Below the pieces are notes generated by a model. It saw only the letters and a program-made list of their open reading frames with translations, made no database searches and was not told the origin of the DNA. From positions 12,656 through 76,655 of the forward strand of contig DAVY01000007.1 in NCBI GenBank assembly GCA_002505775.1: a DNA stretch of 64,000 nucleotides. The letters are read 5' to 3'. The DNA comes from Euryarchaeota archaeon UBA130 (GTDB lineage: Archaea; Thermoplasmatota; Poseidoniia; Poseidoniales; Thalassarchaeaceae). Positions 20,606-26,228 of this stretch are shown here, one piece after another; the stretch's first letter is position 1; each line of letters opens with the position of its first letter. The position numbers and the translations under genes were made by a program.

Positions 20606-23600
20606 ATGGCGGGACGCAGGGCGACAGTTGCCTCGTTGATCGTTCTACTAATGTTAGTCCCAATGGCGTCCTCGAATCTTCATCCTGCCCTTGACAGGAA
20701 AGGAGGCCCCGACGCGGACGGCGTTTGGACATCTAGCGTAGAGTCAGATCTCCATTCTGGGTGGTGGGAGCATTGGAGTAGGGACAAAGATAGAGACTCA
20801 CTAGATGATAGACTGGAGTGGATCCTCGAACTGCAAGAGGACTTCCAGAGAGATTGGTGGAAGAGAGCTGACTCCGGTTTCGCAAGAGTAATCGTCGACT
20901 ATGATCACCACCCATCTGATGCGGATGTCTCGGAGCTCGAAAAATTAGGTGTGGATGTCACATTCCGCCCCAAATATTTGGACTCATTAATAGTAACAGC
21001 TCCTTTCAAATCAATCACCTCCTCAGAAGGCATTCGTTCGCTTACTGGGGTTGTAATGATAGAGGATTTGGGATTAGCAGAACCCCACATGGCCGAAGCC
21101 ATCCCCAACATGGGCGTGGATCTAGTGTGGAACGATTTCGGTTTTGATGGAACAGGCTCCGTAGTAGCTGTCCTGGACACGGGAGTCAGGGGAGACCATG
21201 AGGGCTTGAATGATATGGATGACGAGCCATTTACAACCGGTTGCGAGCAGCCTAGTCCGGATCCTCTGGACCCGAACCCGATTTTCGTAGATTGCGATCC
21301 AAAGATTATCGCATTCTATGACGCAGTCTTGATGGACGCAGAACAAGACCCATCGTCATCTTATGATTCTGGCACTCATGGGACACACGTAGCCGGGATT
21401 GCCGCAGGAACTGGGGGAGGGCAAGCAGACCCTACAACCGGTCAGAGGCACATTGGGGCTGCCCCTGGGGCATTTTTGATTAATATCTTGGCGTGTTGTG
21501 ACGGGGATATTGAGGATGTAATTCAAGGCGCGCAATGGGCGATCGAAAACAAAGATAAGTACGGGATTGACATTTTGACCTCATCTCTCGGGGAACAACA
21601 ACTAGAAGTCCATTTTGACAATGATGGAAACTCAGCATGGAGTAGGCAAATGGATGCAGTAGTAGAGGCAGGGATAATCACAACTCTGTCTGCCGGGAAC
21701 GAGTTTGGGGGTGCCACTTTTGCTGGTTGCAATACAATAGACAGCCCTGGTGATGCACAACTTCCGGTTACTGTAGCTAGCCTGGACAAGGACTTAGGGC
21801 TTGCAATATACAGCAGTAGAGGATACACTTCTGATGGAAGGGTGAAGCCTGATGTGGCTACAATCGGATCGAATATCATGGCTCCTGATGCCGCAACAAG
21901 TGATGGCTACACGTCAAAGTCCGGAACTAGCATGGCAACCCCACTGATGGCAGGAATTGCTGCGCTGATGGTTGAAGCTAATCCTGATATCACTCCTGCT
22001 GAATTCAAAGATATCATCTCTGCACATTCAATAGAGAGAGACCTACAACTCTTGGATGATCCGGGTTTTAATGACTGCAGTCTCTTGGAGACCCGTCCAG
22101 ATAACGAGTTCGGATATGGTCAGGCAGACCCATTAGCTTTCGTAGAAGCCGCTGGTAGTATTGACAGAACACTGAATGTTTCGATGAATCTCGAGACCCT
22201 GCAAGAAATTGGAAACCAGTCATATGTCTCGGGCACAGCTTCTGGAGTTGCCCCAGGAATGGGCATTGTAGAAGTAAGAGTAGGAGGAGGAGATTGGAAA
22301 GGGGCCGCTGATATAAAGGGAGATTGGAGTGAATGGAGAATAAAGCTTGACCCTCATTTAGAATCTGGAAACTCTACGATCTATGCCAGACTTGTAGTTT
22401 CAGAGGACAGTATCTCGCCAGTAGACGCAAGGAGGGTCATCTTGGTAGATGGAGAAGCTTCTGATGCGATGTCGGGAGATTTTATGCAATTCGGACTCTC
22501 TGTATTCCTGTTCCCATTTTTGTGTGCCGTGGCACTAATTTCATTCGTTGCTTTTAGGGAAAGGTGGGACAAGAAGATCGACCTCTCGACAAAGAGCTCT
22601 GATTCATCGTCCAAGTTTGTTAAGACTCTGGAAGCCGTTAATCCCATTCACTATCCGGGTTATGTTGGATCAGCTGTTGAATCTTGGAAAGAGGGGGAGT
22701 CACTTACCGAGAACCAATTCAGAAGGTATGTCTCACTTTCTATCCTCTACACTGCCCAAGGACTTCCACAGGGATTCACCTATGTGGCATTTCCTGCATT
22801 CCTAGCTGTTAACAATGTCAGTCCGGTCGCTATAGCACAACTCTGGGCGGCAATAGCATTGCCATGGACATTCAAATTCGTATGGGGCCCGATGGTGGAC
22901 GGTATACAAGCTCCAAACTATGGTAGAAGGAGGCCGTGGATTTTATTCGCACAGACAGGCATGGTAGTAACATTAGGGGCATTGCTCTTTGTTTCTGATT
23001 TGGCTCAATCCATACAATTAGTAACTCTGATGCTTTTCATCCACAATCTCTTTTCATCTTTACAAGACGTGGGTGTCGACGCATTAGCTGTAGATGTATT
23101 ACAGCCAGACGAGGTTGCCAAGGCGAATGGATTCATGTTCGCAGCCAAGAGAGCTGGATACATACTTGGTGGAGCGATACTCGGAATAATGGCCACTAAA
23201 TTTGGCATCAAATCAGCCATAGTAATCCAACTCCCCTTGTTGGTGTTAATCATGGCACTTCCGTTGTTCCTTAGAGAGAGGCCAGGGGACAAGCTCTTCC
23301 CATGGAGTGCCGCGCGAAAATCCAGTCTTTGGGATGCTCAAGAACAGGATTCCGATGAGAGCGAAGATGAAAGCTCTGACGAGTCTGAGTTAGAGATTCC
23401 ATGGATGGAGAATGAGGAAGAAGATCCTTACAGAGCTGCAAATTGGACCGCAAGGAACTTAATTTCAAGAAAAATTACTCTCCCTGCGGCTACCCTTTGG
23501 GTATCTATTGCGCTTATCCTTCTGGGGATGGTAGTTTACATCGGAGGCGTGTTACTTGAGGAGAACTGGCGAGATCGCCCCATTTTATTCATGGACATAG

Positions 23601-24421
23601 TAGATTTCGCAGTTATATCTCTCTCTGCAGTGGTGATACTACAGCTATCCCAGAAACTAGGTCTAAGACTCCCTATGGTGCCCAATCCGTTTTCCAACGC
23701 AATGAAGGGGCCTGCCATAACGTCATACAATATCGTGAAAGGTTTCTCGTTGAGGTCTTCTTTCCTACTCATATTCCTTTGCCTTCTCTCGGAACTGTAT
23801 CTTTTTGTCGACCCCATCGTGCTTGATATTTTCATTAATGAGGCTGGCTGGGAGATGGACAAATACAGCGCTGTAATGGGTGGTATTGTGATTGCTTTCC
23901 TTATGGCGGGGCAATTAATAGGCGGATTCCTGGGTGATAGATTCGGCGTCAGGGAGGTTGCAATGATAGGATTCACTCTGTTGGCTCTGGCTAATGCGGG
24001 GCTTGCCCTGTTGCAGGGATATTGGGAGAATACAACTGTCATGGTTGCCTACCTCTGCCTTAGAGCAATTATCAATGGATTGGCTTGGATTTCAATTATA
24101 TCCGTATCTATGCGCCTTACCTATAGTAAAGCTGGGGGCACCCAATTTACAGCATACATGTCGTTGTTCAATCTTTCTGGGGTAATCGCACTTAGTTTAA
24201 CGGGGAAGGCGATTGAAATCATGGATTACATCTCAGCCTTGTATCTTGGAGCCGCCTTAACTCTAATGACCGTGATATTCCTTGTGTTCATTGACCCTGA
24301 CGAGTGCGATAGGGTATTAGAAGGAAGGTTAGAAGGCGGGGATGGAGAAGTTTACGAGGCTGACTTGGGAGAGGTTCCCGGTTGGTGGGAGGATGAAGAA
24401 CCGGATGCCGTCCCTTCATGA
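20606..24421 (+). CDS. Fusion protein: secreted subtilisin-like S8 protease, a single TM linker, then an AmpG/PAT-family MFS permease
   Basis: One uninterrupted 1271-codon ORF. Signal-like N-terminus, then S8 triad motifs VAVLDTGV, HGTHVAGIAAG and SGTSMATPLMAG. TM helix FGLSVFLFPFLCAVALISFVAF follows. The MFS part carries LPWTFKFVWGPMVD..YGRRRPWIL, SSLQDVGVDALAVDVL and TQFTAYMSL, matching E. coli AmpG motifs FKFLWSPLMD..GRRRGWLL, SASQDIVFDAWKTDVL and TQFALLSAL. Confidence 0.85.
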   Translation: MAGRRATVASLIVLLMLVPMASSNLHPALDRKGGPDADGVWTSSVESDLHSGWWEHWSRDKDRDSLDDRLEWILELQEDFQRDWWKRADSGFARVIVDYDHHPSDADVSELEKLGVDVTFRPKYLDSLIVTAPFKSITSSEGIRSLTGVVMIEDLGLAEPHMAEAIPNMGVDLVWNDFGFDGTGSVVAVLDTGVRGDHEGLNDMDDEPFTTGCEQPSPDPLDPNPIFVDCDPKIIAFYDAVLMDAEQDPSSSYDSGTHGTHVAGIAAGTGGGQADPTTGQRHIGAAPGAFLINILACCDGDIEDVIQGAQWAIENKDKYGIDILTSSLGEQQLEVHFDNDGNSAWSRQMDAVVEAGIITTLSAGNEFGGATFAGCNTIDSPGDAQLPVTVASLDKDLGLAIYSSRGYTSDGRVKPDVATIGSNIMAPDAATSDGYTSKSGTSMATPLMAGIAALMVEANPDITPAEFKDIISAHSIERDLQLLDDPGFNDCSLLETRPDNEFGYGQADPLAFVEAAGSIDRTLNVSMNLETLQEIGNQSYVSGTASGVAPGMGIVEVRVGGGDWKGAADIKGDWSEWRIKLDPHLESGNSTIYARLVVSEDSISPVDARRVILVDGEASDAMSGDFMQFGLSVFLFPFLCAVALISFVAFRERWDKKIDLSTKSSDSSSKFVKTLEAVNPIHYPGYVGSAVESWKEGESLTENQFRRYVSLSILYTAQGLPQGFTYVAFPAFLAVNNVSPVAIAQLWAAIALPWTFKFVWGPMVDGIQAPNYGRRRPWILFAQTGMVVTLGALLFVSDLAQSIQLVTLMLFIHNLFSSLQDVGVDALAVDVLQPDEVAKANGFMFAAKRAGYILGGAILGIMATKFGIKSAIVIQLPLLVLIMALPLFLRERPGDKLFPWSAARKSSLWDAQEQDSDESEDESSDESELEIPWMENEEEDPYRAANWTARNLISRKITLPAATLWVSIALILLGMVVYIGGVLLEENWRDRPILFMDIVDFAVISLSAVVILQLSQKLGLRLPMVPNPFSNAMKGPAITSYNIVKGFSLRSSFLLIFLCLLSELYLFVDPIVLDIFINEAGWEMDKYSAVMGGIVIAFLMAGQLIGGFLGDRFGVREVAMIGFTLLALANAGLALLQGYWENTTVMVAYLCLRAIINGLAWISIISVSMRLTYSKAGGTQFTAYMSLFNLSGVIALSLTGKAIEIMDYISALYLGAALTLMTVIFLVFIDPDECDRVLEGRLEGGDGEVYEADLGEVPGWWEDEEPDAVPS

Positions 24422-24671
24422 TCACCTAGAGTCCGCGAATACGGACTTCCTATTTTTCAGCCAGACTGTTTGCCCCTACTGCGTCAGAGCTGCCAGGACT
24501 CTAGAGGCGAAAAATCTCACATACACAGAGGTCAATCTCGATAGGTTCGAAGGCCTGAGAGGGGAAGTAGTATCGAAGACAGGACATAGGACTGTACCGG
24601 TGGTCTTTGACCTGCGTGGGACTGAACCAATTTTTGTAGGAGGTTCGGACCATCTCATTGACTATCTGTGA
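24405..24671 (+). CDS. Glutaredoxin-like protein
   Basis: CPYC active site, TVPVVF and GGSDHL motifs. The ATG at 24405 (or 24393) is preferred over the track start at 24342, which overlaps the preceding gene by 80 nt. Confidence 0.75.
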   Translation: MPSLHDHLESANTDFLFFSQTVCPYCVRAARTLEAKNLTYTEVNLDRFEGLRGEVVSKTGHRTVPVVFDLRGTEPIFVGGSDHLIDYL

Positions 24672-25272
24672 TATTTTCAGCTATCGAAGATATCATCTCC
24701 TTCATTTCTTCAAATTGGCCTAAATTTACCATGTGACCCTTTTTGTGCTGAAACCTAGTGACAGGCCATCCAGATTCTTCGAATATTTCGATATGCTCAA
24801 TTCCCACGTCTAGTGATACCAAATGATCGCTTTCTCCATGCATCCAAATTACCGGCCGTGGCTTTAGGAATGGAAGTGAGCCCCTCAATTCATCAGGCCT
24901 TACAGTCTTTGTAGCAATCAATATCAGTCCGACTATCGAATTACTTGCACTAGTCTCAAGTAAGGACGATGCCATCGCTCCTCCTTGAGAGAATCCTCCA
25001 ACAATTATCGGACCATCGGGCAGTATCTCTAAGATTGCAGAAATCGACTCCTCCATTTGGGATAATGACTCATCCTTGGAGACGCCGTCTTCGAAAAGCC
25101 ACCATGCAAAGCCCCCTCTCGTGGGGTGCCTGATTTTCGCCTGCGGGCACAAAGTCGACCATCCTTCCGGGGTTAGGCTTCTCGCAAGATTCTCCATCTT
25201 CTCAGACGTGCCGGTCATTCCGTGCATCATAACGAGCGTACCCTTGCTCATGCGATCACTCATAGATTCCAT
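24655..25272 (-). CDS. Alpha/beta hydrolase, phospholipase/carboxylesterase (Abhydrolase_2) family
   Basis: 205 aa. Nucleophile elbow GFSQGGAMA; later HGESDHLV and a His near the C-terminus (KKGHMV). Confidence 0.7.
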   Translation of the reverse strand: MESMSDRMSKGTLVMMHGMTGTSEKMENLARSLTPEGWSTLCPQAKIRHPTRGGFAWWLFEDGVSKDESLSQMEESISAILEILPDGPIIVGGFSQGGAMASSLLETSASNSIVGLILIATKTVRPDELRGSLPFLKPRPVIWMHGESDHLVSLDVGIEHIEIFEESGWPVTRFQHKKGHMVNLGQFEEMKEMISSIAENITDSQ

Positions 25273-26228
25273 TGGAAAACCAATGCCCCAGCAACCTTTA
25301 GGTGGATGTACGAAGATTGGCCACGAACCGTGACTGTGAGTGAGTAATCCCCTGAGTTGGAAGGAATAGTGCCTATTGCTCCCTTTTCAGTCGCTCCAGA
25401 ACCCCATGCACGGGTCAGTGGAGAAGCTCCAGCATGGTCCTTCATTGTCAGGGAGCCAGATGACGCACCAGTAGATTCTATCTCGACGTCAAGATACCAA
25501 ACCAGGGTGTCCCAATCTCCCTCTGTTGGATGTCCATCGTCAAAAAATGAGTCATATATTTCCTGGTCATTCTCCTCATAAAGCCGATCAATTAAGTCTC
25601 TAGCCCTGTAGAAGAATACATCCCCCTGATAGTCCGACCTGGCGACATTTAGATCCATTCGTAACTGGTTCCGCCCATCAGAGTCTTCCCATACCAGCCT
25701 TTCTAGGAATCCATCACTTCCGCTAAATGTATACTGCAATTCATGGCCCTCGGAGGATTCTGCACTAACTCTTGCATTCCCATTGTTTATTGAAACAGTA
25801 GTAGCACTCCATTCTTGGCCAAATAGAATGAATGACCATTGATCACCAACAGTCCATGGAAATGAGAATACTTGTTGCGGTATTCCATTTTCGTATACAG
25901 ATAATCCATCAATTGTCATCCGTCCGAGAAATGGATTATGGTTAATCACGGCATGCCTCTGTGCTTCTCTCTCTGAAGAAATTCCGACTTGATAATCCCC
26001 CGTTTCGTTGTCTATCTCTGCAACAACTAACCTCGCGCTGTCTTCTCCAAATTGTGGTGTTATAAACGTGTAGAGCCAATTGTTCCCAACTTTCCACTCA
26101 GGGAGAAGTATATCTTCATCCTTAGTTTCTCCCGATTGTCCTGAATCCCCAGTCTCAATGCAACCCGAGACAATGCATATCAACATCAAACAGGCCATCC
26201 CAATCGCAGACCTGCCTCTCATGGCCAT
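25260..26228 (-). CDS. Hypothetical secreted lipoprotein
   Basis: 322 aa. N-terminus MAMRGRSAIGMACLMLICIVSGC (lipobox-like). Acidic, beta-rich mature part with no recognised domain. Confidence 0.6.
   Translation of the reverse strand: MAMRGRSAIGMACLMLICIVSGCIETGDSGQSGETKDEDILLPEWKVGNNWLYTFITPQFGEDSARLVVAEIDNETGDYQVGISSEREAQRHAVINHNPFLGRMTIDGLSVYENGIPQQVFSFPWTVGDQWSFILFGQEWSATTVSINNGNARVSAESSEGHELQYTFSGSDGFLERLVWEDSDGRNQLRMDLNVARSDYQGDVFFYRARDLIDRLYEENDQEIYDSFFDDGHPTEGDWDTLVWYLDVEIESTGASSGSLTMKDHAGASPLTRAWGSGATEKGAIGTIPSNSGDYSLTVTVRGQSSYIHLKVAGALVFQWNL

What the first reader, a model, noticed from the sequence alone, without database searches (positions are those of the whole stretch)
20606..24421. 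Extracellular subtilase and AmpG-type MFS permease fused in a single 1271-aa polypeptide
**Domain order.** A signal-like helix and a full S8 catalytic triad are followed by a beta-rich domain. One TM helix (about 22485..22556) and a short linker come next. The chain ends in a polytopic domain with strong AmpG/PAT-family signatures: FKFVWGPMVD..YGRRRPWIL, SSLQDVGVDALAVDVL and TQFTAYMSL.

**Why I think the fusion is real.** The predicted topology is self-consistent. The protease is outside, one TM helix brings the chain inside, and the MFS N-terminus is cytoplasmic as usual. This argues for a genuine fusion rather than an assembly artefact.

**Other features.** The MFS central loop carries a highly acidic Ser/Asp/Glu stretch (EQDSDESEDESSDESELE) and apparently two extra helices.

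**Interpretation.** Tethering an endopeptidase to an importer would channel cleavage products straight into uptake, a one-protein 'digest and import' device. This would fit the protein-degrading lifestyle inferred for marine planktonic archaea. I know of no characterised example of this architecture.
Basis: partly seen in the sequence, partly recalled or inferred. Interest (0 to 1): 0.75.

Follow-up and report, generated by a model that had tools for sequence, protein, structure and literature searches.

The report
Surface protease fused to AmpG-like permease
Marine Group II archaea encode one conserved 1271-residue protein that joins an outward-facing subtilisin-type protease to an AmpG-like membrane permease, probably so that cleaved protein fragments are taken up where they are made, and related lineages carry other outer domains on the same permease at the same genomic spot.

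Summary
Window 20606..24421 (+) is one 1271-aa ORF. It has a signal peptide, a pro-region and an S8 subtilase with an invariant D191/H258/N365/S442 catalytic set. A beta-rich domain and one TM helix (TM0, aa 632-651) follow. The chain ends in an AmpG/PAT-like MFS with two extra helices in the central loop, giving 15 TM in all.

The fusion is not an artefact. All 29 complete loci from different Poseidoniales species genomes hold an uninterrupted 1251-1285-aa ORF in the same syntenic slot. A 47%-identical version occurs in Marine Group III.

The wider finding is that the permease is the constant part. At the same locus, other lineages carry an M28 peptidase or an unknown Cys-rich domain on TM0-MFS. 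A cupredoxin version also exists, but I did not see its locus.

Motif A and the TM4 acidic residues that the AmpG structure paper ties to proton coupling are conserved. Several AmpG sugar-pocket residues are not, so this is an AmpG-like permease and not an AmpG orthologue.

"Digest and import" is the best-supported reading, at about 0.5 confidence, but it is inferred and not shown. I found no paper describing the architecture. I rate it a new variant of known kinds, of moderately high interest.

The parts
20606..20677 (+). Signal peptide (aa 1-24; MAGRR, hydrophobic core, ..PMASS)
   Evidence: Hydropathy peak at aa 7-25. The n-h-c pattern is conserved in homologues. The cleavage site is inferred.
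20678..21115 (+). N-terminal pro-region (aa 25-170), probably a subtilisin-type propeptide
   Evidence: AF2 model 1 predicts beta-alpha-beta-beta-alpha-beta elements at aa ~92-154 (pLDDT 58-83). Identity across homologues is 0.64-0.71. No Pfam hit, so the assignment is inferred.
21116..22135 (+). S8 subtilase catalytic domain (aa 171-510) with D191, H258, N365 and S442
   Evidence: Pfam PF00082, E 1.5e-43. Best PDB relative is Tk-SP 3afg, E 2.9e-36. The catalytic residues are invariant in 72 sequences. Mean identity is 0.86.
22136..22441 (+). Beta-rich domain (aa 511-612) between protease and membrane
   Evidence: Predicted strands in AF2 model 1 (pLDDT 55-68). Identity is 0.81. No family or PDB match by sequence.
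22499..22558 (+). TM0 (aa 632-651), N-out/C-in helix carrying the FxxPF motif
   Evidence: Hydropathy 2.54. AF2 helix with pLDDT ~92. An FxxP[FW]F-like motif is shared in most fusion types (S8, M28, cupredoxin and the unknown domain).
22559..22714 (+). Cytoplasmic linker (aa 652-703) with three short helices; begins with the conserved ERWxxK
   Evidence: AF2 model 2. 7 K/R residues. Identity is 0.33 apart from the ERW..K invariants.
22715..23266 (+). MFS N-bundle, TM1-6 (aa 704-887), with AmpG-type extended motif A and the TM4 D821/D825/D830
   Evidence: Identity is 0.74.
23267..23479 (+). Cytoplasmic central loop (aa 888-958) with the acidic Ser/Asp/Glu run (aa 913-930)
   Evidence: Disordered in AF2, pLDDT <50. 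19 D/E residues. The acidic composition is conserved although the sequence is not.
23480..23656 (+). Two inserted TM helices (aa 959-984 and 998-1017) between the MFS bundles
   Evidence: AF2 model 2 and hydropathy. Identity is 0.31. The M28, cupredoxin and Phycisphaerae MFS modules have cores too short to hold it.
23657..24289 (+). MFS C-bundle, amphipathic helix plus TM7-12 (aa 1018-1228)
   Evidence: AF2 model 2, pLDDT 85-95. Foldseek top hits are AmpG. Identity is 0.76.
24290..24421 (+). Acidic cytoplasmic tail (aa 1229-1271, starting in the conserved FIDPDE.DRVLEG) and stop codon
   Evidence: 16 D/E against 2 K/R. Disordered in AF2.
24405..24671 (+). Glutaredoxin gene directly downstream, probably co-transcribed; likely start M22 of the listed ORF, overlapping the fusion's end by 17 nt
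   Evidence: Pfam Glutaredoxin. It lies on the same strand next to the S8 fusion in every locus that extends past the gene. A 17-nt overlap is also called in L072. The start codon choice is inferred from homologue lengths of 86-89 aa.

Best explanation
This is a genuine, vertically inherited single polypeptide of a Marine Group II (Poseidoniales) archaeon, most likely of the family Thalassarchaeaceae.

**Proposed assembly.** A Sec-type signal peptide exports the N-terminal half. A propeptide-like region then folds, and is probably cleaved from, an active S8 endopeptidase. The protease and a beta-rich domain stay on the outer face because helix TM0 ties them to a 14-helix AmpG/PAT-like MFS permease that is probably proton-coupled.

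**Proposed function.** The tethered protease cuts dissolved or particulate protein at the cell surface. The attached permease takes up the resulting oligopeptides, possibly modified ones, before they diffuse away.

**Shown**
- the fusion itself
- its conservation and synteny
- intact catalytic residues and intact motif A/TM4 residues
- the predicted fold and topology
- interchangeable ectodomains on the same permease

**Inferred**
- import direction
- peptide substrate
- functional coupling between protease and permease
- removal of the propeptide
For: **Fusion is real and conserved**
- The 120 listed homologue clusters range from 63% to 99% identity. Nearly all are full-length proteins of 1255-1317 aa, apart from two shorter entries, and all carry both Pfam domains. 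They come from ENA, JGI, NCBI, Tara and Logan assemblies.
- 29 of 29 complete loci from different species genomes have an uninterrupted ORF.
- Synteny is strict: TrxR-RibH-RibE-RibL-RibB | fusion | Grx-esterase-hyp-H+PPase.

**Both halves are constrained**
- Mean identity is 0.86 for the S8 domain, 0.81 for the beta domain and 0.74/0.76 for the two MFS bundles. TM0, the linker and the loops are at 0.31-0.39.
- D191, H258, N365 and S442 are invariant.

**Permease fold and residues**
- AF2 model of aa 601-1271: pLDDT 78, pTM 0.76.
- The top four Foldseek PDB hits are AmpG structures (E 2.4e-11 to 6e-8). Entry 8zke gives a target-normalised TM-score of 0.85.
- AmpG residues K62, W65, P67, D70, R79-81, W83, D125, D129 and D134 are all conserved (read against PMC11568325).
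- K/R count is 22 inside and 2 outside.

**Link to peptidases**
- A second, unrelated peptidase clan (M28) is fused to the same MFS clade in the same way. This version has at least 57 clusters. It shares the right-hand genomic flank.
- MGII genome papers report extracellular S8 and M28 peptidases and a proteolytic lifestyle (PMC6864105, PMC6461757).

**Precedent**
- A. baumannii AmpG1 binds the hydrolase Slt through a periplasmic domain and couples cleavage to import (PMC13507758).
Against: - There is no experimental or expression evidence here.
- The same MFS clade also carries non-hydrolase ectodomains. These are a cupredoxin and an unknown Cys-rich domain in Poseidoniia, and FG-GAP or 3-keto-disaccharide-hydrolase domains at the C-terminus in proteins of unknown origin. 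A peptide-specific role is therefore not implied by the permease.
- Characterised relatives carry muropeptides, acetyl-CoA, siderophores or folates, not plain peptides.
- 20 bacterial stand-alone homologues have no S8 or M28 gene within about 6 kb.
- Paralogous proteases in MGII manage with a plain C-terminal TM anchor.
- The full-length AF2 model was too poor to show whether the active site faces the permease.
Confidence: 0.5

Rival explanations
1. Platform or anchor model. The TM0-MFS module transports some unrelated small molecule and also serves as a membrane platform that displays whichever surface domain a lineage needs. Protease products are not its substrate.
For: - Ectodomains on the same MFS clade include a cupredoxin, an unknown Cys-rich domain, FG-GAP repeats and a 3-keto-disaccharide hydrolase.
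- At one orthologous slot the ectodomain differs between lineages while the MFS stays.
- Intragenic recombination separates the two halves.
- Stand-alone bacterial homologues have no peptidase neighbours.
Against: - A single TM helix suffices as an anchor in the paralogous stand-alone proteases. A 14-helix anchor therefore needs another reason.
- Two different peptidase clans were recruited independently.
- A similar TM0 motif across most fusion types suggests that the ectodomain and the permease work as one unit.
Confidence: 0.22
2. Export-and-process model. The MFS exports a precursor, either a peptide or a donor molecule such as an acyl-CoA. The tethered S8 protease processes it, or processes surface proteins, outside the cell. 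This would resemble a lantibiotic exporter working with a LanP-type subtilisin leader peptidase, or AT-1 supplying acetyl-CoA to a lumen.
For: - SLC33A1/AT-1, which moves its substrate away from the cytosol, is among the closest solved relatives by sequence (E 2.9e-12).
- Subtilisin-type leader peptidases and peptidase-containing exporters exist (my own knowledge, not tested here).
Against: - The neighbours are housekeeping genes (riboflavin synthesis, TrxR, Grx, H+-PPase). I saw no precursor or modification genes in the ~10 flanking genes.
- An M28 exopeptidase at the same slot does not fit leader removal.
- The closest structural matches are AmpG importers.
Confidence: 0.1
3. True AmpG function. 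The permease imports anhydromuropeptides or other peptidoglycan fragments scavenged from bacterial debris, and the protease trims attached proteins or peptides.
For: - The best NCBIfam model and the best structural matches are AmpG.
- The AmpG-specific extended motif A and D125/D129 are conserved.
- There is an internal two-helix insertion, as in P. aeruginosa and A. baumannii AmpG (PMC11568325).
Against: - The TIGR00901 score of 118.6 is far below the cut-off of 350.
- AmpG cavity positions Y59, K132, Y152 and K235 are W754, A828, K848 and E1063 here. Y59 and Y152 help define the sugar site, and mutating Y152 abolished AmpG function. K848 is invariant in this family and E1063 nearly so (PMC11568325).
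- S8 endopeptidases are not known to act on the D-amino-acid stem peptides of murein (my own knowledge).
Confidence: 0.06
4. Assembly or gene-calling artefact. Two adjacent genes were joined by a sequencing or assembly error.
For: None found. The only oddity is a recombination breakpoint near nt 22,100-22,400 when the window is compared with one related genome.
Against: - 29 of 29 species genomes and more than 100 protein clusters from independent projects have the same continuous ORF. One is on a 533-kb contig whose isolate name suggests long reads.
- Close relatives of the window (L001 with about 90-95% nucleotide identity; P0001 and P0002 with 99% and 96% protein identity) are collinear across the junction.
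Confidence: 0.01

Closest known systems
AmpG anhydromuropeptide permease (E. coli, P. aeruginosa; PAT family MFS)
   Same: - It is the best structural match and the best NCBIfam model.
- The extended motif A (K62, W65, P67, D70, RRR, W83) and the TM4 D125/D129/D134 are conserved.
- It has 14 helices. An internal two-helix insertion between the bundles is described for P. aeruginosa and A. baumannii AmpG (PMC11568325).
   Different: - The score is below the family cut-off (118.6 against 350).
- Y59, K132, Y152 and K235 are replaced.
- It has an extra N-terminal TM0 and a 600-residue ectodomain.
- The host is an archaeon, which by general knowledge lacks murein.
A. baumannii AmpG1 with the lytic transglycosylase Slt (PMC13507758)
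   Same: An AmpG-type permease carries an extracytoplasmic domain that brings a hydrolase next to the importer, so that cleavage is coupled to uptake.
   Different: - The hydrolase is a separate protein bound non-covalently to a periplasmic domain.
- It cuts glycan, not protein.
- The system is bacterial and serves cell-wall recycling.
Tk-SP, subtilisin-like protease of Thermococcus kodakarensis (PDB 3afg)
   Same: - It is the closest solved relative of the protease half (E 2.9e-36).
- The layout of propeptide, S8 domain and C-terminal beta domain is the same. The Tk-SP layout is from my own knowledge.
   Different: - Tk-SP is a soluble secreted enzyme.
- The beta domain here has no detectable sequence similarity to it.
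- The protease here is tethered to a transporter.
SLC33A1 / AT-1 acetyl-CoA transporter (PDB 9m0s, 9mun)
   Same: - It is the best PDB match by sequence for TM1-5 (E 2.9e-12).
- The Pfam Acatn hit is above its cut-off.
   Different: - The match covers the N-terminal bundle only.
- It is eukaryotic, lies in the ER membrane and has no ectodomain.
Peptidase-containing ABC exporters (C39 domain) and ABC importers with fused substrate-binding domains (my own knowledge, not tested here)
   Same: They are single chains that join a processing or capturing domain to a transporter.
   Different: - They belong to a different transporter superfamily.
- The C39 peptidase is cytoplasmic and serves export.
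- The fused binding domains are not enzymes.

Membership tests
Peptidase S8 (subtilase) | Profile match above the curated threshold | tested here: met
   PF00082 scores 149.6 bits against a cut-off of 21.8, over aa 182-505 and covering the full model.
Peptidase S8 (subtilase) | Asp-His-Ser triad in that order, plus the oxyanion Asn | tested here: met
   D191 (VLDTG), H258 (HGTHVAG), N365 (SAGNE) and S442 (GTSMATP) are invariant in 72 sequences.
Peptidase S8 (subtilase) | N-terminal propeptide (I9-type intramolecular chaperone) | tested here: inconclusive
   No Pfam hit for aa 25-170. The predicted secondary-structure pattern fits, at pLDDT 58-83.
Peptidase S8 (subtilase) | Proteolytic activity | not testable with these tools
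   Needs an enzyme assay.
Major facilitator superfamily | Profile match, and a fold of two six-helix bundles | tested here: met
   PF07690 scores 95.1 bits against a cut-off of 33.4. AF2 pTM is 0.76 with TM1-6 and TM7-12. There are 325 Foldseek PDB matches at E <= 0.001, and all 50 listed are MFS transporters.
Major facilitator superfamily | Motif A (D-x-x-G-R-R) between TM2 and TM3 | tested here: met
   GPMVD765...YGRRR776 is invariant in 72 sequences.
AmpG family (TIGR00901) | Score at or above the curated family cut-off | tested here: not met
   118.6 bits against 350. The equivalog models score 59-70 bits against cut-offs of 656-756.
AmpG family (TIGR00901) | AmpG-specific extension of motif A (K62, W65, P67, third Arg, W83) | tested here: met
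   K757, W760, P762, R774-776 and W778 align to these positions (residue roles from PMC11568325).
AmpG family (TIGR00901) | Disaccharide-binding and cavity residues Y59, K62, D125, D129, K132, Y152, K235 | tested here: not met
   K62, D125 and D129 are kept. Y59 is W754, K132 is A828, Y152 is K848 and K235 is E1063.
AmpG family (TIGR00901) | Two extra TM helices forming a vestibule | tested here: inconclusive
   Two inserted helices are predicted at aa 959-1017, between the bundles. P. aeruginosa and A. baumannii AmpG have an insertion at this point (PMC11568325). I could not inspect how they pack, because no coordinates were available.
AmpG family (TIGR00901) | Transport of GlcNAc-anhMurNAc-peptides | not testable with these tools
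   Needs a transport or binding assay.

The most novel reading that the evidence does not exclude
Poseidoniia (Marine Groups II and III) have evolved a modular family of single-chain 'outer domain plus permease' devices. A constant TM0-AmpG-like permease sits at a conserved genomic slot. Lineages exchange its outer domain (S8 endopeptidase, M28 exopeptidase, an unknown Cys-rich domain, a cupredoxin) by recombination at the domain border. In this reading the family is the archaeal, single-membrane answer to 'selfish' substrate capture in dilute seawater, and ectodomain choice contributes to niche differences between MGII lineages.
Probability: 0.35. Interest if true: 0.82.

Novelty: new variant of a known kind. 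Interest (0 to 1): 0.68.

Why it matters
**Ecological question.** MGII archaea are among the most abundant planktonic archaea, are uncultured, and are thought to live on protein. How they keep the products of extracellular proteolysis from diffusing away is unexplained.

**What this gene offers.** It is conserved and syntenic in the Poseidoniales genomes recovered here, and it physically ties a protease to a permease. That gives a concrete hypothesis which can be tested by heterologous expression.

**Wider point.** The same permease carries different outer domains at the same locus. This suggests a general design principle for single-membrane cells, and a marker locus for niche differentiation.

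**Annotation.** Pipelines currently label these proteins simply 'MFS transporter', 'hypothetical protein' or 'AmpG'. The last of these is misleading.

Tried and rejected
- **Full-length AF2 model (aa 36-1235, 72 sequences).** Mean pLDDT was 54 and the S8 domain was below 50. It cannot be used to judge the geometry between protease and permease. No structure jobs remained to model the unknown ectodomain.
- **Beta-rich domain (aa ~479-625).** No Pfam match and no meaningful PDB sequence match. No similarity to the unknown ectodomain of P0125.
- **Pro-region.** No Pfam I9 hit.
- **Unknown Cys-rich ectodomain.** A profile of six sequences found nothing in the PDB or Pfam.
- **Split orthologues.** The two protease-only genes (L035, L037) lie in other genomic contexts. 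They are paralogues with a plain TM anchor, not split versions.
- **Peptidase genes next to bacterial stand-alone homologues.** I looked at 20 loci and found none. The neighbours in the Phycisphaerales locus L038 were uninformative.
- **Paralogues in the window.** None.
- **Literature.** Five full-text searches and three MGII genome papers gave no mention of a peptidase-MFS fusion.
- **MGIIa versus MGIIb.** I tried to assign the carrier MAGs through the supplements of PMC6461757, but none of the six MAG names I searched for appear there.
- **Assembly artefact.** Considered and rejected.

Full report
**1.

The window has a single ORF at 20606..24421 (+), 1271 aa long.

Pfam finds Peptidase_S8 over aa 182-505 (E 1.5e-43). 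It also finds MFS_1 (E 5.2e-27 for the whole protein, best stretch aa 712-1022), with partial BT1 and Acatn hits.

NCBIfam's best transporter model is the AmpG family TIGR00901, over aa 706-1227 (E 2.6e-34). Its 118.6 bits are far below the curated cut-off of 350. RhtX/FptX is next.

The catalytic residues are D191, H258, N365 and S442. All four are invariant in a 72-sequence alignment.

It also matches an AF2 helix at aa 632-651.

**2. The fusion is real and old**

A search of 5.8 billion proteins returned 961 hits.
- The 120 best range from 63% to 99% identity.
- Nearly all are full-length proteins of 1255-1317 aa, apart from two shorter entries, and all carry both Pfam domains.
- They come from ENA, JGI, NCBI, Tara and Logan assemblies. 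Source names include 'Candidatus Thalassarchaeaceae archaeon' and 'subtilisin family serine protease/MFS family permease'.

A scan of one genome per GTDB species found the gene in about 35 Poseidoniales (MGII) genomes.

In all 29 loci that contain the whole gene, the ORF runs uninterrupted for 1251-1285 aa. One is a 533-kb contig whose isolate name suggests PacBio sequencing.

The gene sits in a fixed neighbourhood: TrxR, RibH, riboflavin synthase, a cytidylyltransferase-like gene and DHBP synthase on one side. A glutaredoxin, an alpha/beta hydrolase, a 322-aa protein of unknown function and the H+-pyrophosphatase lie on the other.

A cluster 47% identical to the window protein, with the same architecture, is named Marine Group III.

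There is no stop or frameshift in independent assemblies, the orthologues are not split, and the MFS fold is supported.

**3. Both halves are under constraint**

| Region | Mean identity to the window protein |
|---|---|
| S8 domain | 0.86 |
| Beta-rich domain | 0.81 |
| MFS N-bundle | 0.74 |
| MFS C-bundle | 0.76 |
| TM0 | 0.39 |
| Cytoplasmic linker | 0.33 |
| Acidic central loop | 0.34 |
| Two inserted helices | 0.31 |

**4. Anatomy of the permease half**

A full-length AF2 model was poor (pLDDT 54).

A model of aa 601-1271, built from a more diverse alignment, was good (pLDDT 78, pTM 0.76). It shows:
- TM0
- three short cytoplasmic helices
- TM1-6
- a disordered acidic loop
- two inserted TM helices (aa 959-984 and 998-1017)
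- TM7-12

That makes 15 TM in all. Loop K+R counts are 22 inside and 2 outside. This fits an N-out ectodomain and a cytoplasmic MFS N-terminus.

The four best Foldseek PDB matches are AmpG structures (E 2.4e-11 to 6e-8). Entry 8zke, further down the list, gives a target-normalised TM-score of 0.85. EfpA, SLC33A1 and POT peptide transporters come next.

By sequence, the closest solved chains are SLC33A1 (E 2.9e-12) and AmpG (E 5e-12). Both match mainly in the N-terminal bundle.

**5. Is it an AmpG?**

I read the phmmer alignment to E. coli AmpG against the residue roles given in PMC11568325.
- **Conserved:** the AmpG-type extended motif A (K62, W65, P67, D70, R79-81, W83) and the TM4 acidic residues (D125, D129, D134).
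- **Replaced:**
  - Y59 is W754.
  - K132 is A828.
  - Y152 is K848, which is invariant in this family.
  - K235 is E1063, which is nearly invariant.

Y59 and Y152 help define the sugar-binding site in that paper. Y152 was one of the two residues whose mutation abolished AmpG function.

Together with the sub-threshold family score, this means the protein works like an AmpG-type proton symporter. It is not a member of the AmpG orthologue group, and muropeptide is an unlikely substrate.

The internal two-helix insertion is described for P. aeruginosa and A. baumannii AmpG in the same paper, so it is a family trait and not an oddity.

**6. The protease half**

The best solved relative is Tk-SP of Thermococcus kodakarensis (3afg, E 2.9e-36).

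The region before the catalytic domain has the predicted strand-helix pattern of a propeptide but no Pfam match.

The beta-rich domain has no detectable relatives.

**7. The permease is the constant part and the outer domain is exchangeable**

An exhaustive profile-free search of 1.84 billion representatives, followed by domain scans, showed the same plan with other outer domains. The plan is signal peptide, ectodomain, TM0, linker, MFS.

| Ectodomain | Example | Notes |
|---|---|---|
| Peptidase_M28 | P0130 | At least 57 clusters, named 'Euryarchaeota archaeon' or 'Thermoplasmatota archaeon' by their sources |
| Cupredoxin | P0133 | Locus not seen |
| Unknown ~200-aa Cys-rich domain | P0125, P0126, P0131, P0419-P0428 | No homologue found |
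| Another unknown domain | P0134 | |

Most of these carry an FxxP[FW]F-like motif in TM0.

Proteins of unknown origin carry C-terminal additions instead: 3-keto-disaccharide hydrolase or FG-GAP repeats.

Different versions occupy the same genomic slot:
- **Unknown-domain version (P0420).** It lies on a 1.5-Mb contig, between RibB (plus a GHMP-kinase gene) and Grx-esterase-hyp-H+PPase.
- **1230-aa S8 variant (P0418).** It has the same left flank.
- **M28 version (P0130).** It shares the right flank. H+PPase is 86% identical to the window's, the unknown protein 51%, the esterase 45% and Grx 56%.

A rough neighbour-joining tree of MFS cores, without support values, puts all the Poseidoniia fusions in one clade apart from the stand-alone MFS homologues. 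Ectodomain type does not follow the MFS tree.

**8. Recombination at the domain border**

The window and genome UBA28 (L015) are mostly 92-96% identical in nucleotide sequence over 16 kb. The exception is window ~22,100-24,900, where identity falls to 47-71%.

That block runs from the S8/beta border through TM0, the MFS and the glutaredoxin gene into the esterase gene.

At protein level the two halves disagree:

| Protein | Protease half | MFS core |
|---|---|---|
| P0030 | 98% | 77% |
| P0003 | 89% | 98% |

Both arrangements occur in several independent assemblies. The two halves therefore have separable histories.

**9. What it most likely does**

The best-supported reading is a surface-tethered protease whose products are taken up by the attached proton-coupled permease.

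Support:
- the topology
- intact catalytic and motif A/TM4 residues
- constraint on both halves
- independent recruitment of two peptidase clans to the same permease clade and slot
- the reported proteolytic lifestyle of MGII, with extracellular S8 and M28 peptidases (PMC6864105, PMC6461757)
- a 2026 precedent in which A. baumannii AmpG1 uses a periplasmic domain to bind a hydrolase and couple cleavage to import (PMC13507758)

Against:
- the non-hydrolase ectodomains
- no peptidase genes next to the bacterial stand-alone homologues
- paralogous MGII proteases that have only a plain TM anchor
- no direct evidence on direction or substrate

I put this reading at about 0.5. The rivals are:
- a platform/anchor model, 0.22
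- an export-and-process model, 0.10
- true muropeptide import, 0.06
- an artefact, 0.01

**10. Novelty**

The sequences are in public databases with automatic names only.

Full-text searches and three MGII genome papers do not mention a peptidase-MFS fusion.

Both parts belong to known families, and coupling a hydrolase to an AmpG-type permease now has a non-covalent precedent. I therefore rate this a new variant of known kinds.

The modular, slot-conserved family with exchangeable outer domains is the more novel reading. It is consistent with what I saw but needs proper phylogenies and experiments.

Noticed in passing
window ~22,100-24,900, compared with L015 (UBA28): There is a sharp drop from mostly 92-96% to 47-71% nucleotide identity, confined to the block from the S8/beta border through the MFS, Grx and part of the esterase gene. 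At protein level, P0030 matches the window best in the protease half and P0003 matches best in the MFS half. This is intragenic recombination at the domain border.
   Followed up: partly
L069-L071 (M28-MFS), L072 (unknown domain-MFS), L073 (S8-MFS variant): The genomic slot next to Grx-esterase-hyp-H+PPase, and in L072 and L073 also next to the riboflavin cluster, holds a TM0-MFS gene with a different ectodomain in different lineages.
   Followed up: partly
window 24342..24671 (+), likely true start 24405: A glutaredoxin gene abuts or overlaps the 3' end of the fusion gene on the same strand in every S8 locus that extends past the gene. A 17-nt overlap is also called in L072. The gene is inverted at the M28 locus. 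It moves with the MFS half in the recombination block. A PDB entry title shows SLC33A1 bound to oxidized glutathione. Any functional link is speculation.
   Followed up: partly
L035:5974-8025 and L037:1-1473: Some MGII genomes carry protease-only paralogues, 68-73% identical over aa 1-658. They end about 10-30 residues after a plain TM anchor and lie in unrelated genomic contexts. Next to one is a fascin/beta-trefoil-like gene.
   Followed up: yes
P0399-P0414: About 880-aa M28 proteins, 54-65% identical to the M28 ectodomain of P0130, show no precomputed MFS Pfam hit. One gives a weak Acatn hit at aa 454-497 and a weak blast match to the MFS core. They probably carry a very divergent permease half.
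   Followed up: partly
L022/L023 (TMED192) and L005/L009 (UBA181): Two MAGs each hold two copies of the fusion gene in the same syntenic context on different contigs. This looks like mixed strains within a bin, not true paralogues.
   Followed up: no
L038-L040 (Phycisphaerae MAGs): Among the species genomes scanned, the closest stand-alone relatives of the MFS half are 452-aa Phycisphaerae proteins. Their best tblastn segment is 46-49% identical, and identity over the MFS core is 35-38%. Their core is too short to hold the central insertion, and the L038 ORF starts directly at the MFS core with no ectodomain or TM0. In L038 a beta-helix/PMP-repeat protein is encoded just upstream.
   Followed up: partly
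window 25260..26228 (-): A conserved 322-aa protein with an N-terminal signal-like helix and no Pfam match is always found between the esterase and the H+-PPase. This holds at the S8, M28 and unknown-domain loci.
   Followed up: no
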